NCBI GenBank assembly: GCA_965203355.1
Contig: OZ241889.1
Location: 1 to 64,000, forward strand
From: Candidatus Latescibacterota bacterium
GTDB lineage: Bacteria > Latescibacterota > UBA2968 > UBA8231
Direction: 5' to 3'
Length of the DNA stretch: 64,000 nt
Under the pieces are notes generated by a model. It had not been told where the DNA came from, did not search any database, and worked only from the letters and a program-made list of their open reading frames with translations. Positions 2,296 to 50,889 of this stretch are shown here, piece by piece. A program made the translations under genes and the position numbers. Every line of letters begins with the position of its first letter. Position 1 is the first letter of the stretch.

Positions 2296-3370
2296 ATCCC
2301 AGCGCGAAGTGCAGGCGCTGCTCGCACTGAGTCAAGCCGAGCGGCCCAAGCACGTGCGGCGCTTGCTCGCCCACTTTGGCTCGGCCCAAGAAGCACTCGC
2401 CGCCGCCGATTGGACCGCCGCCGTAGGGGCCAGTGCGCCCGCACAGCGGCCCACTCAGGACGACTTGGCTTGGGCTGCCGACCAGTGGCAACGGCTCTGC
2501 GCGGCTGGCGGCCGCTGTCTAGTCCCAGCCGACGCGGACTATCCCCAACTGCTGGGCCAAATCGCCGCACCGCCTCCCGTGCTGTTTGCGCTGGGCCCGG
2601 GCGATTTGGCCCCGCCCACCGTAGCCATCGTCGGCTCGCGCAAGGCATCGGACAGTGGCAAGCTGATGGCTGCCGAACTAGCCCGCGAGTTAGTAGCCCA
2701 AGGCATCTGCATCGTCAGCGGCATGGCTTTTGGCATTGACGCGGCCGCCCACCAAGCCGCGCTCGCCGCCGACGGGCGCACCATCGCCGTGTTGGGCTGC
2801 GGGGCCGATGTGCCCTATCCCCGCGCCCACACCCCACTCTACCGCCAAATCCGCGCACGGGGGGCCATCGTTTCTGAGTTTGCTTGGGGGGCGCAGCCGG
2901 AGCGAGGGGCCTTCCCGCGCCGCAATCGCATCATCAGCGGGCTGAGCTTGGGGGTGATCATCGTCGAGGCCCCGCAAAAGAGCGGCGCACTGATTACAGC
3001 CCAACACGCCCTAGAGCAAAACCGCGAGGTATTTGCCGTACCCGGCGATGTGCGCTCGGGCCGCAACGCCGGCTGCCACCAACTCATCAAAGAGGGGGCC
3101 AAGCTGGTCGAGCATATAGACGACGTGCTGGAAGAATTGGCGATGTGGGCTTCCCCGCGCCCGCAGCCTACGCCCACACTCGCGCCCACGCTGCCCCCGG
3201 AGGACGAGAGCGTCTATGCCCTGCTGTCGCGCCAACCTCGGCACATCGACGAACTCGCCCAACACAGCCCCCTGCCGCCCGCGACCCTGCTCGACGTACT
3301 GCTGCGGTTGGAACTCGACGGCCTAGTCGAGCAGCTCGCCGGCAAGCGATTTTTGCGCCGCGCCGGGTAA
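2288..3370 (+). CDS. dprA: DNA-processing protein DprA
   Basis: VAIVGSR, IVSGMAFGIDAAAH, FPRRNRIISGLS, SGALITA and REVFAVPG motifs; C-terminal winged helix; start ATG 2288. Confidence 0.95.
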   Translation: MPESQREVQALLALSQAERPKHVRRLLAHFGSAQEALAAADWTAAVGASAPAQRPTQDDLAWAADQWQRLCAAGGRCLVPADADYPQLLGQIAAPPPVLFALGPGDLAPPTVAIVGSRKASDSGKLMAAELARELVAQGICIVSGMAFGIDAAAHQAALAADGRTIAVLGCGADVPYPRAHTPLYRQIRARGAIVSEFAWGAQPERGAFPRRNRIISGLSLGVIIVEAPQKSGALITAQHALEQNREVFAVPGDVRSGRNAGCHQLIKEGAKLVEHIDDVLEELAMWASPRPQPTPTLAPTLPPEDESVYALLSRQPRHIDELAQHSPLPPATLLDVLLRLELDGLVEQLAGKRFLRRAG

Positions 3371-39515: not shown

Positions 39516-40193
39516 ATGATGACAAGTGAAGTGCAGTTCGGGCAACCACCTCCTGTGCAGGGAATGGAGCCGATACCAGTGTCGGCATTGCAACATGCGG
39601 TGTACTGCATGAGACAATGCGCTCTAATCCACTTGGAACGACTTTGGGAGGAAAATCGGTTTACCGCTGAAGGTCGAGTGCTGCATCAAACCATTGACGA
39701 AGCAGGGCATCGGCGCAAGGCAGGTGTGCTTCAGATGATGTCACTCCCGATCTACAGCATCCGGCTCAATCTTACAGGGGTCGCCGATATGGTTGAGTTC
39801 CACGAAAGCCAGACAAGTATTACCCCGTTCCCGATCGAGTTCAAACGAGGCAAGGCCAAAGTACATCGCGCCGACGAGGTGCAACTCTGCGCCCAGGCAT
39901 TGTGCCTTGAAGAAATGACCGGTACAGCAGTGCCGATGGGAGCTTGTTACTACGGACAAACCAAACGGCGGAAAGAAGTGTCTTTTGATGCCGAGCTCCG
40001 CACCCTCACCGAGACAACAGTCGAACAAGTAGCCGCGCTCTTCGCTCAAGGCCGCACACCCTCAGCCGAGTACGAAGCAGCCAAGTGCCGCGGGTGTTCG
40101 CTGCTCGACCAGTGTCGTCCCAAGGCGATGGAGCGTTCGGTTCTCGCTTGGCGAACGCGGGCCCTAACATCACACCTTGCAGAATCTGGATAA
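39516..40193 (+). CDS. cas4: Cas4 nuclease
   Basis: SALQH..YC.RQCALIH, G..D.VE, PIEFKRG, QLCAQALCLEEM and C..CSL...C Fe-S cysteines; start may be the later Met (MEPIPV). Confidence 0.95.
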   Translation: MMTSEVQFGQPPPVQGMEPIPVSALQHAVYCMRQCALIHLERLWEENRFTAEGRVLHQTIDEAGHRRKAGVLQMMSLPIYSIRLNLTGVADMVEFHESQTSITPFPIEFKRGKAKVHRADEVQLCAQALCLEEMTGTAVPMGACYYGQTKRRKEVSFDAELRTLTETTVEQVAALFAQGRTPSAEYEAAKCRGCSLLDQCRPKAMERSVLAWRTRALTSHLAESG

Positions 40194-41233
40194 TGCCCAT
40201 GAGGCGATTGCTCAATACACTCTATGTTACTACGCCCGGATCACGTCTGACCAAAGATGGCGAGAACTTGGTCGCGGAAGTAGAAGGTGAGGAGCGAGCG
40301 CGGGTTCCGTTCCACATGTTGGGATCCGTGGTGGTTTTCGGTAGCATTTATATATCTCCACCTTTGATCCAAGCCTGTGCCGCTGGTGGTATCGTCTTAG
40401 TACTCTTGGACCGATTCGGCCGATTCCAAGCCCGAGTCACGGGACCAGTCTCCGGCAACGTACTGCTGCGGCGCGCACAATATAAAGCCAGCGACGAGCC
40501 AGAAGAGATCATTCGCAGTATTCTCGTCGGCAAGATCGCCAATCAGCGAAGTGTCCTACAAAGAGCACAGCGCGATTATGGGGATCAGCTTGAACCTCCT
40601 GGCCATAAAAATATGTCCGCCGCGACGAATCGCCTTCGGCAGATTGTGCAACGCATCAACAACGGCCACGATAGTATAGATAGATTACGCGGTTTTGAAG
40701 GCGAGGCTGCACATATCTATTTTTCGGTCTTTGGTCGCCTGATCCGCGTACCCGAACCAGAGATGGCATTTGTCGGTCGTAATCGGCGACCGCCACGTGA
40801 CCCTATAAATGCTCTGCTTTCATTTCTCTACACTCTTCTTGTCCACGACTGTAGCTCTGCCGCCGAGAGCGTTGGTTTAGATCCTGCCGTGGGGCTCTTT
40901 CACAGAGATCGTCCCGGCCGGCCGAGTCTTGCGCTAGATCTTATGGAAGAATTGCGACCAGTCTTGGCCGATCGGCTTGCATTATCGCTAGTAAATCGTC
41001 GGCAAGTTAGTGCAAAAGACTTCCAGACCCGAGAAGGCGGTAGTGTTTCAATGAGCGACGACGCTCGCAAGACAGTTCTCACTGCTTGGCAGGAACGAAA
41101 GCGCGTAGAGAGGACTCACCCTTTTCTTGGGGAAAAGGCACCGCTCGGTTTGGTTCCATATCTCCAAGCACAGTTGCTAGCTCGGCACCTTCGAGGTGAT
41201 TTAGACGCTCACCCGCCATGGTTATGGAAATAA
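40193..41233 (+). CDS. cas1: Cas1 (type I-C)
   Basis: LLNTLYV, GNVLLRRAQY, LRGFEGEAA, RNRRPPRDPINALLSF and SLALDLMEELR. Confidence 0.97.
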   Translation: MPMRRLLNTLYVTTPGSRLTKDGENLVAEVEGEERARVPFHMLGSVVVFGSIYISPPLIQACAAGGIVLVLLDRFGRFQARVTGPVSGNVLLRRAQYKASDEPEEIIRSILVGKIANQRSVLQRAQRDYGDQLEPPGHKNMSAATNRLRQIVQRINNGHDSIDRLRGFEGEAAHIYFSVFGRLIRVPEPEMAFVGRNRRPPRDPINALLSFLYTLLVHDCSSAAESVGLDPAVGLFHRDRPGRPSLALDLMEELRPVLADRLALSLVNRRQVSAKDFQTREGGSVSMSDDARKTVLTAWQERKRVERTHPFLGEKAPLGLVPYLQAQLLARHLRGDLDAHPPWLWK

Positions 41234-41264
41234 GTCGCCCCTCGCATGGGGCGTGAATTGAAAC
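41234..41264 (+). repeat. Solitary CRISPR repeat between cas1 and cas2
   Basis: GTCGCCCCTCGCATGGGGCGTGAATTGAAAC; 2 substitutions and 1 deletion relative to the array repeat; stem CGCCCC/GGGGCG intact. Confidence 0.9.
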
Positions 41265-41276
41265 AAACAAAACAAA

Positions 41277-41567
41277 ATGATGGTTCTCGTTACATATGAT
41301 GTCTCGACGACATCTGATGGCGGCACACAGCGGTTACGACGTGTTGCTAAGATGTGTCGCGACTTTGGACAAAGAGTGCAGTTTTCAGTATTTGAGATTG
41401 AGGTGGACTCGGCTCAATGGACTGCTTTGAAGACGCGACTTGAAGCGATTATTGATCCAAAAACCGATAGTCTTAGGTATTATTTTCTCGGTGCGAATTG
41501 GGAGCGGCGCATAGAGCATGTCGGTGCCAAGGCGACTGTCGATTTGAACGGAACACTGATTGTCTGA
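41277..41567 (+). CDS. cas2: Cas2
   Basis: VLVTYDV, RLRRVAK.C..FGQRVQFSVFE and DSLRYY.LG. Confidence 0.97.
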   Translation: MMVLVTYDVSTTSDGGTQRLRRVAKMCRDFGQRVQFSVFEIEVDSAQWTALKTRLEAIIDPKTDSLRYYFLGANWERRIEHVGAKATVDLNGTLIV

Positions 41568-41753
41568 GAAGGATGGTGCGAACCACAAGCGATTAGGTAA
41601 ACGAGAGGCGGTCCGCACATCGTATAACTCATTGAGAATCAAAGGAATATGGATCGCGAATGGTACTTATCACTCTTCTAATTCGGAAAGTCTACTAGGG
41701 TTCGCGCTAACTTATCTCTTCAGTGTTGTTACACAATGTATTAGCTTGCAACA
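41568..41753 (+). promoter_or_regulatory. CRISPR leader
   Basis: AT-richer non-coding 186 bp between cas2 and the first repeat, with GCGAACC / GGTTCGC motifs as seen in I-C leaders. Confidence 0.75.

Positions 41754-50889
<9,136 letters not shown>

What the first reader, a model, noticed from the sequence alone, without database searches (positions are those of the whole stretch)
41231..41300. Solitary CRISPR repeat wedged between the cas1 stop and the cas2 start
Seen: a 31-nt near-perfect repeat with an intact stem starts at the first base after the cas1 TAA and ends 12 nt before the cas2 ATG. The intervening AAACAAAACAAA has no Shine-Dalgarno. Established: Cas5c cuts at the 3' base of this hairpin and leaves a 5' handle on which Cascade assembles. 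Inference: the cas mRNA is cut between cas1 and cas2, and the cas2 initiation region plus start codon occupies the 'spacer' position. Free Cas5/Cas7 could then block or destabilise cas2 mRNA, a post-transcriptional feedback on spacer acquisition. Alternatively it is a scar of ectopic integration or an older array.
Basis: partly seen in the sequence, partly recalled or inferred. Interest (0 to 1): 0.75.

Follow-up and report, generated by a model that had tools for sequence, protein, structure and literature searches.

The report
Lone CRISPR repeat before cas2
A single, almost intact copy of this bacterium's own CRISPR repeat sits in the messenger RNA between two immunity genes, and related genomes carry similar lone repeats right at the starts of neighbouring immunity genes, which suggests that the CRISPR machinery may control its own genes through them.

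Summary
Window 41234-41264 is a solitary, sense-strand copy of the locus's own type I-C repeat. It has 2 substitutions and 1 deletion against 118 identical array repeats. It starts one base after the cas1 TAA and ends 12 nt before the cas2 ATG.

It is not alone. A second solitary repeat at 35954-35983 heads a crRNA-like gene whose spacer matches the cas5c promoter. The cas7|cas4 gap holds a decayed copy.

None of 10 relatives tested (Cas1 83-97% identical within the group) has a recognisable repeat at cas1|cas2. The sister locus L003 keeps a hairpin remnant that shares one derived base.

A second Latescibacterota I-C clade has 15 sense-strand repeat-derived elements at the cas7|cas4, cas4|cas1, cas1|cas2 and cas5 junctions. 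Seven end exactly at the next ATG, and in five the start codon lies inside the handle. The 11-nt handle is far better kept than the rest. No such element was found in 70 other I-C loci.

Best reading (0.4): a cis-acting Cas5c/Cascade binding or cutting site that controls the next cistron. Main rival (0.3): a decaying array-derived scar.

Against cleavage: the copy carries G24A in a trinucleotide that one studied Cas5c needs. No RNA data exist.

The parts
33634..35937 (+). cas3 (HD nuclease plus helicase)
   Evidence: TIGR01596 E 1.5e-30 and TIGR01587 E 3.7e-29
35954..35983 (+). Second solitary repeat (30 nt), head of a crRNA-like (CreR-type) small RNA gene
   Evidence: R1 gives 30.6 bits, E 1.8e-7. 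A promoter-like site at 35912-35940 lies just upstream. The element is conserved in L119, L121 and L122.
35984..36010 (+). Spacer-like segment of the crRNA-like gene
   Evidence: It is conserved in 3 relatives. Its best TTC-flanked match in the 64-kb window is 36077-36094, with 13 of 15 counted positions. None of 200 shuffled spacers reached 13; the highest was 11.
36008..36051 (+). Terminator-like hairpin (13 pairs) with a T-run
36059..36086 (+). Promoter-like site for cas5c-cas8c-cas7 (TTGACA, 16 nt, TATATT; 11 of 12). Its -10 region holds the TTC-flanked target of the crRNA-like spacer.
36115..36774 (+). cas5c. The true start is ATG 36115; the ORF start at 35965 lies inside the solitary repeat.
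   Evidence: TIGR01876 aligns from residue 56 of the long ORF. Searches show the sequence. It gives E 3.6e-89 to the solved Cas5d 3vzi, and the K-H pair is aligned.
36771..38540 (+). cas8c
   Evidence: TIGR01863 E 5e-169
38540..39484 (+). cas7 (Csd2)
   Evidence: TIGR02589 E 1e-115
39485..39515 (+). cas7|cas4 gap: a decayed remnant of a repeat-derived element that is better kept in relatives
   Evidence: Relatives have a 42-nt gap that begins at the cas7 stop, with a hairpin, a GAATGAAAC-like handle, 13 nt and then ATG. R1 hits in 3 relatives at E 0.03-0.07. The homology of the window copy was judged by eye.
39516..40193 (+). cas4
   Evidence: TIGR00372 E 1.3e-36
40193..41233 (+). cas1c
   Evidence: TIGR03640 E 1.7e-149; translation
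41234..41264 (+). THE FINDING: a solitary type I-C repeat. The stem pairs 41236-41241 with 41248-41253. The predicted Cas5c cut lies between 41253 and 41254. The 11-nt handle is 41254-41264.
   Evidence: cut position inferred
41265..41276 (+). A/C-rich 12-nt linker without a Shine-Dalgarno motif
   Evidence: Similar A-rich leaders precede cas2 in relatives and cas4 in the window.
41277..41567 (+). cas2. Its start codon would be at 'spacer' positions 13-15.
   Evidence: TIGR01573 E 1e-17
41568..41753 (+). Leader of the array
   Evidence: It lies between the cas2 stop and the first repeat.
41754..49578 (+). CRISPR array of 119 repeats of 32 nt, with spacers of 32-37 nt

Best explanation
The element is a genuine solitary copy of the locus's own I-C repeat, transcribed as part of the cas operon mRNA. 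It most likely acts in cis on that RNA as a docking site, and possibly a cutting site, for Cas5c. Cas5c recognises the hairpin base and the handle. It would cut between 41253 and 41254 and stay on the 11-nt handle, and Cas7 subunits could then load onto the next nucleotides. Those nucleotides are the cas2 initiation region (ATG 13 nt after the handle), so ribosome access, or the fate of the cas2 message, would depend on how much free Cas5c/Cas7 is present. It belongs to a set of such elements that mark the gene junctions of I-C operons in two Latescibacterota clades.

Shown: the element, its position, its hairpin and its orientation. Also shown: the sister elements at other junctions, their fixed spacing to start codons, and the selective retention of the handle.

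Inferred: transcription through it, Cas5c binding or cleavage, Cas7 loading, and any effect on Cas2 level.
For: (1) The copy is real, on the sense strand and nearly intact. No promoter-like site lies between cas1 and cas2, so it should lie within the operon transcript.

(2) The window has a second solitary repeat at cas3|cas5c. It heads a crRNA-like gene whose spacer matches the cas5c promoter after a TTC (13 of 15 positions; best shuffle 11 in 200). Position 1 of spacer and target is T/T in the window and C/C in L121. This suggests that solitary repeats in this lineage can be used by Cascade.

(3) Eight of 11 clade-A relatives have, at cas3|cas5c, a degenerate hairpin plus handle followed by about 30 nt that carry the SD and ATG of cas5c, with no promoter or terminator. 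Two hairpin pairs show CG-to-UA double changes.

(4) In clade B (15 loci, Cas1 82-97% identical to each other) model R2 finds 15 sense-strand elements at junctions at E<=0.05, in 11 loci. Of the 16 non-array elements read out (15 sense, 1 antisense), 7 end exactly at the ATG of the next gene, 1 ends 2 nt before it, and in 5 the TTG of the handle is the in-frame start.

(5) In these 16 elements the handle differs from every array repeat at 8 of 176 positions, against 158 of 416 elsewhere (Fisher p 8e-20). The handle is the part that Cas5c holds.

(6) 88.7% of hairpin cells pair, and 4 pairs show double changes. The covariation score is reached by 14 of 500 shuffles and exceeds all slid controls.

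(7) The sister locus L003 has, at the same place, a different 5-bp hairpin followed by GTGAA. It shares the derived A at position 24. Four-fold sites of cas1+cas2 are only 64% identical between the two loci. By my own rough arithmetic a neutral 31-mer would have taken about 8 changes on the window's branch, against at most 3 seen.

(8) Contigs from two other studies, about 97% and 91% identical, bridge 41234-41264 without a joint. One of them replaces the cas3|cas5c gap.

(9) A phage solitary repeat is known to nucleate Cas6f-Cas7f filaments on RNA (passages of PMC10651486).
Against: G24A falls in the U22-G23-G24 trinucleotide said to dominate recognition by B. halodurans Cas5c. G23 and G24 are invariant in all 15 array repeat types aligned. 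S. mutans Cas5c tolerates nearby changes.

0 of 10 clade-A relatives give any R1 hit at cas1|cas2, even at E<=10. Their 55-68-nt gaps fold weakly, and two relatives have only a 12-nt gap. An intact element at this site is therefore dispensable.

Many sister elements are visibly decaying. The covariation is modest, and the alignment was fitted to the model. Hits were found with a model that includes the handle, so some of the handle conservation is ascertainment.

No RNA run holds the locus. Gene conversion from the 119-repeat array could keep the copy fresh without selection.
Confidence: 0.4

Rival explanations
1. Decaying relic. A piece of array material (one repeat) reached the cas1|cas2 gap by recombination in an ancestor and is now functionless. 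It looks fresh in this genome because it is young or was refreshed by gene conversion from the 119-copy array.
For: The state across clade A is patchy and graded: intact in the window, a hairpin remnant in L003, and only arguable fragments or nothing in the other relatives. The remnants at cas7|cas4 are also degenerate, and the window's own copy there has lost its 5' arm. An earlier unchecked note of this scan reached this reading for a cable-bacterium cas1-cas2 gap. G24A hits a conserved recognition base.
Against: A relic does not explain several observations. Fifteen of 16 non-array elements in clade B are sense-strand and sit at gene junctions. Seven end exactly at an ATG. The handle is kept about 8-fold better than the rest. 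Hairpins persist with changed pairs. None of the 119 array repeats carries the copy's three changes, so a very recent conversion is not evident.
Confidence: 0.3
2. Exapted translation-initiation region with no Cas involvement. Repeat-derived DNA is retained because its purine-rich 3' stem arm and A/U-rich handle serve as ribosome-binding region, spacer and even start codon for the next gene.
For: At cas1|cas2 in clade B the 3' arm has become GAGGAG or AAGGAG, 6 nt before the TTG of the handle, which is the only in-frame start near the conserved Cas2 N-terminus. The 5' arm there has decayed. Handle conservation is equally expected if the handle is the spacer between SD and start.
Against: In the window the start lies 12 nt past the handle, the TTG of the handle is out of frame, and no SD is present. 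In most clade-B elements the SD-like arm is locked in a hairpin of -8 to -12.6 kcal/mol, and GGAG lies 11 nt from the ATG. The SD-to-ATG distance at cas5c in this window is 7 nt.
Confidence: 0.15
3. Trans-acting crRNA-like guide. The repeat plus the first 30-odd nt of cas2 is processed into a guide that directs Cascade to a partly matching DNA target elsewhere, as CreR/crlRNAs do.
For: The window's other solitary repeat does exactly this. I-C crlRNAs that repress promoters are reported in a preprint (passages of 10.1101/2024.12.27.630466).
Against: There is no TTC-flanked site with 11 or more of 15 matches to the pseudo-spacer anywhere in the 64-kb window. There is no second repeat or terminator within cas2 and no own promoter. 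The 'spacer' is constrained by the Cas2 N-terminus. The rest of the genome could not be searched.
Confidence: 0.05
4. DNA-level element: an off-target integration product or the seed of a new array.
For: Its position next to the integrase genes. An earlier unchecked note of this scan read a repeat-spacer-repeat unit before cas4 in another genome this way.
Against: Off-target integration duplicates the local sequence, not the canonical repeat. Here a single copy homologous to the array repeat is present, with no second copy. The 20 nt upstream show no likeness to the leader end (by eye). No spacer has been added in the window or, as far as colinearity shows, in two related contigs.
Confidence: 0.03

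Closest known systems
Standalone repeat-like sequences / solitary repeat units in CRISPR-cas loci (Shmakov et al. 2023 preprint, PMC10120712; sections 21-23, Table 1 and passages read)
   Same: A repeat-like sequence outside the array but inside a cas locus. That survey reports 34% of 1206 I-C loci with at least one such sequence and 7% with a mini-array.
   Different: The text I read places type I elements in long gaps next to cas3, cas8 or cas6, acting on promoters. It does not mention a cas1|cas2 site or elements abutting start codons. Its Table S5 and supplementary files could hold such cases but were closed.
CreR / crRNA-like regulatory RNAs (10.1101/2023.03.10.532045; type I-C crlRNAs in 10.1101/2024.12.27.630466; passages read)
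   Same: A degenerate repeat used by Cascade for regulation rather than defence. The window's element at 35954-36051 fits this kind fully.
   Different: The cas1|cas2 copy has no own promoter, no terminator or second repeat, and no PAM-flanked target in the window. Any action would be in cis on the mRNA, not on DNA.
RNA anti-CRISPRs (Racr; RacrIC1, RacrIF1; PMC10651486, passages read)
   Same: A solitary repeat followed by unrelated RNA. RacrIC1 lies 11 nt behind a gene in one transcript. RacrIF1 nucleates a Cas6f-Cas7f filament on RNA.
   Different: Racrs are carried by phages and prophages and act against the host. This element lies in the host's own cas operon, ahead of a cas gene.
Autogenous translational operators, such as a phage coat protein binding a hairpin at a start codon, and engineered Csy4/Cas6 cut sites used to insulate genes in synthetic operons (both recalled, no call)
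   Same: This is what the element would work like: an RNA-binding or RNA-cutting protein acting on a hairpin next to a start codon inside a polycistronic RNA.
   Different: This is a functional analogy only. No natural case using a CRISPR repeat inside a cas operon turned up in my searches.

Membership tests
Type I-C CRISPR repeat | Sequence and structure match to I-C repeats (GTCGC start, 6-7-bp G+C stem, ATTGAAAC end) | tested here: met
   R1 gives 33.2 bits, E 3e-8; 6-bp stem at -13.1 kcal/mol.
Type I-C CRISPR repeat | Conserved U22-G23-G24 after the cut site | tested here: not met
   The copy reads U-G-A. G23 and G24 are invariant in 15 array repeat types. The role of the trinucleotide is taken from PMC8524198.
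Type I-C CRISPR repeat | Member of a regularly spaced array | tested here: not met
   It is a single copy, 489 nt before the first array repeat. No other hit lies in 41265-41750.
Solitary repeat unit / standalone repeat-like sequence of a cas locus | Repeat-like sequence outside any array, inside or beside the cas genes, matching the locus's own repeat | tested here: met
CreR / crlRNA regulatory mini-array | Spacer partly complementary to a PAM-flanked site at a promoter | tested here: not met
   No TTC-flanked site with 11 or more of 15 matches in the window. The rest of the genome is not held.
CreR / crlRNA regulatory mini-array | Own transcription unit with a 3' boundary (second degenerate repeat or terminator) | tested here: not met
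   No promoter-like site between cas1 and cas2, and no + strand terminator after it. No second repeat.
CreR / crlRNA regulatory mini-array (element at 35954-36051) | Repeat, spacer, 3' boundary, and a PAM-flanked partial target at the effector promoter | tested here: met
RNA anti-CRISPR (Racr) | Encoded by a phage, prophage or plasmid, often beside acr genes | tested here: not met
   It lies between cas1 and cas2 of a complete chromosomal-type I-C operon.
Intrinsic terminator | G+C hairpin followed by a T-run on the transcribed strand | tested here: not met
   The hairpin is followed by TGAATTGAAAC. The scan lists it only on the minus strand.
Off-target spacer integration scar | Local sequence duplicated on both sides of an inserted spacer | tested here: not met
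   One copy only, and it is homologous to the canonical repeat.
Cas5c substrate (functional) | Bound or cut by the cognate Cas5c | not testable with these tools
   The locus's Cas5c is close to solved catalytic Cas5c/Cas5d proteins (E 3.6e-89 to 1e-84, K-H pair aligned). There is no biochemical or RNA evidence.

The most novel reading that the evidence does not exclude
In some type I-C systems, CRISPR repeats have been recruited as punctuation of the cas operon itself. Cas5c, alone or with Cas7, recognises solitary repeats placed at cistron junctions, with the start codon at or just after the 5' handle. It then cuts or coats the mRNA. The effector proteins would thereby set, post-transcriptionally, the output of the adaptation genes cas4, cas1 and cas2 and of cas5c itself. 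This would be a natural counterpart of engineered Cas6 operon insulators and of autogenous translational repressors.
Probability: 0.3. Interest if true: 0.85.

Novelty: new variant of a known kind. Interest (0 to 1): 0.62.

Why it matters
How cells hold down the spacer-acquisition genes, whose excess risks self-immunity, is poorly understood. The known repeat-derived regulators act on DNA at promoters.

A repeat that works on the operon's own mRNA, at the start of cas2 and in relatives at cas4, cas1 and cas5c, would add a post-transcriptional layer. It would make Cas5c a gene regulator, and it would explain why lone I-C repeats also turn up at gene starts in phages.

The hypothesis can be tested directly with a reporter fusion and purified Cas5c, and the set of 27 related loci gives natural variants to test. 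If it is only a scar, the graded series still documents how array material invades cas operons and is reused as ribosome-binding sites and start codons.

Tried and rejected
- Whole genome: none is held, so off-window targets and other copies could not be sought.
- Plasmid collection: only 4 distant Cas1 matches at about 65% identity, and none informative beyond showing that Zymomonas has no insert.
- Metagenome scan: 6 loci, all 68-79% Cas1 identity, with 2-16-nt gaps and no close relative.
- RNA evidence: no RNA holder is listed, so expression and 5' ends could not be examined.
- Read laying: the contigs bridge the site, but the tables were cut (577 and 30 rows not shown). The letters at 41234-41264 in the related contigs are therefore unknown.
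- Second repeat inside cas2, or a mini-array: none found.
- crRNA-like target of the cas2 pseudo-spacer: none in the window.
- Intrinsic terminator or internal promoter at the element: none on the + strand.
- Model R1 on 10 clade-A relatives: no hit at cas1|cas2. The apparent fragments there (GTCGC...GAAAC in L017/L018; TCGCCCC-GTGA in L005) rest on my eye only.
- Consensus folding of the clade-A cas7|cas4 gaps gave no structure.
- Long cas1|cas2 gaps outside Latescibacterota (14 loci): R2 found only array repeats.
- nhmmer found no cas-region hit of 11 bits or more in 70 other I-C loci. Sensitivity is lower where the locus's own repeats score only 18-19 bits.
The same regions were then addressed by computed coordinates.
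- Literature: searches found no paper describing a repeat at cas1|cas2 or Cas5c/Cas6 acting on cas mRNA. Supplements were closed.
Full report
**1. The observation**

The window holds a complete type I-C locus (NCBIfam; the cas5c start is corrected):
- cas3 33634-35937
- cas5c 36115-36774
- cas8c 36771-38540
- cas7 38540-39484
- cas4 39516-40193
- cas1 40193-41233
- cas2 41277-41567

A 186-nt leader follows, and then an array of 119 repeats of 32 nt at 41754-49578. Of these, 118 are identical.

Directly after the cas1 TAA lies a 31-nt copy of the repeat (41234-41264), then 12 nt of A/C-rich linker, then the cas2 ATG. The copy differs from the array repeat by G13A (loop), one missing G, and G24A (handle). 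No array repeat carries any of these changes.

The copy keeps a 6-bp stem at -13.1 kcal/mol. It is the only match in the window at up to 3 mismatches, and 0 of 100 shuffles gave a match. It scores 33.2 bits, E 3e-8, with a covariance model (R1) built from 15 different I-C repeats.

**2. The element is one of several in this locus**

*Second solitary repeat.* The same model finds a second solitary repeat at 35954-35983 (30.6 bits, E 1.8e-7), in the 177-nt gap between cas3 and the true cas5c start. Around it lie, in order:
- a promoter-like site at 35912-35940;
- a 27-nt spacer-like segment;
- the strongest terminator-like hairpin of the region (36008-36041 plus a T-run);
- the strongest promoter-like site of the region (36059-36086; 11 of 12 matches);
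- an AAGGAG motif and the cas5c ATG.

The spacer's best TTC-flanked match in the whole window lies in the -10 region of that promoter (36077). It matches 13 of 15 positions when every sixth position is ignored. None of 200 shuffled spacers exceeded 11.

Three relatives (L119, L121, L122) keep the same architecture and spacer. In L121 both spacer and target begin with C where the window has T in both.

This is a CreR-type, Cascade-guided autorepressor. That is a known kind: passages in 10.1101/2023.03.10.532045 and 10.1101/2024.12.27.630466, and the survey PMC10120712.

*Decayed element at cas7|cas4.* The window's 31-nt cas7|cas4 gap looks like a decayed version of an element that relatives keep better. 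In them the layout is: stop codon, a hairpin, a GAATGAAAC-like handle, 13 nt with GGAG, then ATG. R1 hits three of these relatives at E 0.03-0.07. The layout is the same as at the window's cas1|cas2 site.

**3. Close relatives (my 'clade A')**

Cas1 searches gave 11 further species-level loci, all from genomes titled Candidatus Latescibacterota, with Cas1 83-97% identical within the group.

At cas1|cas2:
- two loci have a 12-nt gap;
- nine have 55-68 nt;
- R1 finds nothing at this junction in any of the 10 relatives searched, even at E<=10;
- the long gaps fold weakly.

The exception is L003, the window's sister in the Cas1 tree. Right after its stop codon it has a different 5-bp hairpin followed by GTGAA. 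In a MAFFT alignment it shares with the window's copy the A at repeat position 24, where both arrays have G. The solitary copy therefore probably predates the split of the two.

Four-fold sites of cas1+cas2 are only 134 of 211 identical between the two loci. By my own rough Jukes-Cantor arithmetic, a neutral 31-mer would have taken about eight changes on the window's branch. It shows at most three. This points to selection or to gene conversion from the array. I cannot tell which.

Contigs from two other studies bridge the site without a joint: run X5 at about 97% identity and run X7 at about 91%. X7 replaces the cas3|cas5c gap by 60 letters. The letters at the site itself were not shown.

At cas3|cas5c every clade-A locus carries a repeat-derived element. 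Three relatives have the crRNA-like gene described above. Eight have a short form with no promoter or terminator: a variable hairpin, an ATTGAAA(C/T) handle, and a conserved stretch of about 30 nt that holds the SD and ATG of cas5c. Two of its hairpin pairs switch between C-G and U-A.

**4. A second clade (my 'clade B')**

Fifteen further Latescibacterota loci form clade B. Their Cas1 is about 41% identical to the window's and 82-97% identical among themselves. They use a 37-nt repeat with the same ATTGAAAC end.

A model of that repeat (R2) finds 17 non-array matches at E<=0.05 in the 15 ten-kb regions (the filter-off searches agree):
- 15 are sense-strand and lie at gene junctions, spread over 11 loci: six at cas4|cas1, five at cas7|cas4, three at cas1|cas2 and one before cas5;
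- one is antisense, in a cas3|cas5 gap;
- one is a hairpin-only partial hit.

The other four loci show only sub-threshold look-alikes.

I read out 16 of these elements (15 sense, 1 antisense):
- 7 end exactly at the ATG of the next gene;
- 1 ends 2 nt before it;
- in 5 the TTG of the handle is the in-frame start (cas2 in three loci; cas1 in two, through a partial second handle copy);
- 2 are followed by 10-23 nt with an SD;
- 1 is the antisense element.

Where cas2 starts in the handle, the 3' stem arm has become GAGGAG or AAGGAG, 6 nt upstream, and the 5' arm has decayed.

Across the 16 elements the 11-nt handle differs from every array repeat at 8 of 176 positions, against 158 of 416 elsewhere (Fisher p 8e-20). 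Some ascertainment bias applies, because the search model includes the handle.

88.7% of hairpin cells pair, and four pairs show double changes. The covariation score is reached by 14 of 500 shuffles and beats all slid controls. That alignment was fitted to the model.

**5. How widespread**

I examined 70 other I-C loci:
- 8 other Latescibacterota;
- 23 from the class of a Parvibaculum locus;
- 31 from the phylum of a Desulfarculus locus;
- 6 metagenome contigs;
- 2 others.

In these, the cas1|cas2 gaps are mostly under 20 nt. No cas-region match of 11 bits or more was found by nhmmer. R2 found only array repeats in the 14 loci with gaps of 21 nt or more.

An earlier, unchecked note of this scan describes a degenerate repeat in a cable-bacterium cas1-cas2 gap and read it as a scar that now carries the cas2 ribosome-binding site. 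Other unchecked notes report I-C repeats at gene starts in phages and an integrative element. The scan has therefore met the theme before on other DNA. I treat those notes as leads only.

**6. What it most likely does**

Established background, from passages of PMC8524198:
- It recognises the cut site and the downstream nucleotides, and it sits on the handle in Cascade.
- B. halodurans Cas5c depends mostly on U22-G23-G24. S. mutans Cas5c is more tolerant.

The window's Cas5c is close to solved catalytic homologues (E 3.6e-89 to 1e-84), with the K-H pair aligned. My mapping of that pair onto the published catalytic Lys/His is inference.

A phage solitary repeat can nucleate a Cas6f-Cas7f filament on RNA (PMC10651486 passages).

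Putting this together, the best reading (0.4) is a cis-acting Cas5c/Cascade site in the operon mRNA. The predicted cut lies between 41253 and 41254, Cas5c would hold 41254-41264, and Cas7 would load over the cas2 initiation region. Cas2 output would then be tied to the pool of free effector subunits. Cas4, Cas1 and Cas5c would be controlled in the same way in relatives. Binding, cleavage and any effect on expression are all inferred.

Points against this reading:
- the G24A change;
- loss of the element in most relatives;
- visible decay of sister elements;
- absence of RNA data.

**7. Rivals**

- **Decaying array-derived relic (0.3).** It explains the graded decay. It does not explain the strand bias, the exact phasing to start codons, or the handle conservation.
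- **Exaptation purely as a translation-initiation region (0.15).** This is convincing for the clade-B cas2 starts. It fits the window poorly: there is no SD, the handle's TTG is out of frame, and the hairpin is intact.
- **Trans-acting crRNA-like guide (0.05).** No target was found in the window.
- **DNA-level integration product (0.03).** There is only a single canonical copy and no local duplication.

**8. Comparison and novelty**

The element is a solitary repeat unit in the sense of PMC10120712. That survey counts repeat-like sequences in 34% of 1206 I-C loci, but in the text I read it discusses none at cas1|cas2 or abutting start codons. Its supplements were closed.

The element fails the tests for a CreR/crlRNA gene, a Racr, a terminator and an integration scar (see Membership tests).

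Five literature searches found no description of a CRISPR repeat acting on cas mRNA. Engineered Csy4 insulators and coat-protein operators are recalled analogies only.

I file it as a new variant of a known kind, with interest 0.62. The single element in the window is modest on its own. The family-wide pattern of handle-conserved repeats at cas gene starts is what makes it worth an experiment.

Noticed in passing
window 35912-36114: A complete crRNA-like (CreR-type) gene between cas3 and cas5c: promoter-like site, solitary repeat 35954-35983, 27-nt spacer and terminator. The spacer matches the TTC-flanked -10 region of the cas5c promoter (13 of 15 positions; best of 200 shuffles 11). Position 1 of spacer and target is T/T in the window and C/C in L121.
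   Followed up: yes
window 35965 / 36115: The longest ORF for cas5c starts at 35965, inside the solitary repeat. The family model aligns only from residue 56, and the true start is ATG 36115, preceded by AAGGAG.
   Followed up: yes
L118, L120, L123-L128 (cas3|cas5c gaps of clade-A relatives): A short form of the cas3|cas5c element without promoter or terminator: a variable hairpin, an ATTGAAA(C/T) handle, then about 30 conserved nt holding the SD and ATG of cas5c. The cas5c start therefore lies about one spacer length after a solitary repeat. RNAalifold also pairs the handle with a conserved downstream CAATAC.
   Followed up: partly
window 39485-39515; L001-L007, L018 around 3261-3308: The cas7|cas4 gap of clade A carries a degenerate repeat that starts at the cas7 stop codon and ends 13 nt before the cas4 ATG. 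The window's copy has lost its 5' arm (31 nt against 42).
   Followed up: partly
L057-L071 (clade B), e.g. L065 8900-8937, L070 2227-2262, L063 385-421: Repeat-derived elements at cas7|cas4, cas4|cas1, cas1|cas2 and before cas5. Many end exactly at the next ATG, and in some the TTG of the handle appears to be the start codon of cas2 or cas1.
   Followed up: partly
window 49547-49590: The terminal array repeat (one substitution) is followed 9 nt later by the ATG of a 433-aa FAD/pyridine-nucleotide oxidoreductase ORF (49588-50889; PF13738 E 1.2e-25) on the same strand. The neighbouring gene thus starts in the 'spacer' position after the last repeat.
   Followed up: no
window 44925-45224, 45516-45815, 46504-46803: Blocks of several spacers are duplicated inside the array: two 300-nt stretches are 100% identical and a third is 84% identical.
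   Followed up: no
L059, L060, L064, L066-L069 versus L057, L058, L061-L063, L065, L070, L071: Clade B has two gene orders with near-identical adaptation modules and repeats: cas3-cas5-cas8-cas7-cas4-cas1-cas2, and cas5...cas7-cas3-cas4-cas1-cas2. The second order has much more divergent Cas5 and Cas7 (about 30% and 22% identity to the window's proteins).
   Followed up: no
L062, between cas7 and cas4: An insert of several hundred bases with an open frame separates cas7 from cas4 in this one locus.
   Followed up: no
L017 / G004:C1:1830560-1831575: cas1 of this relative is matched in two pieces, with a TAG inside. It is possibly a broken gene.
   Followed up: no
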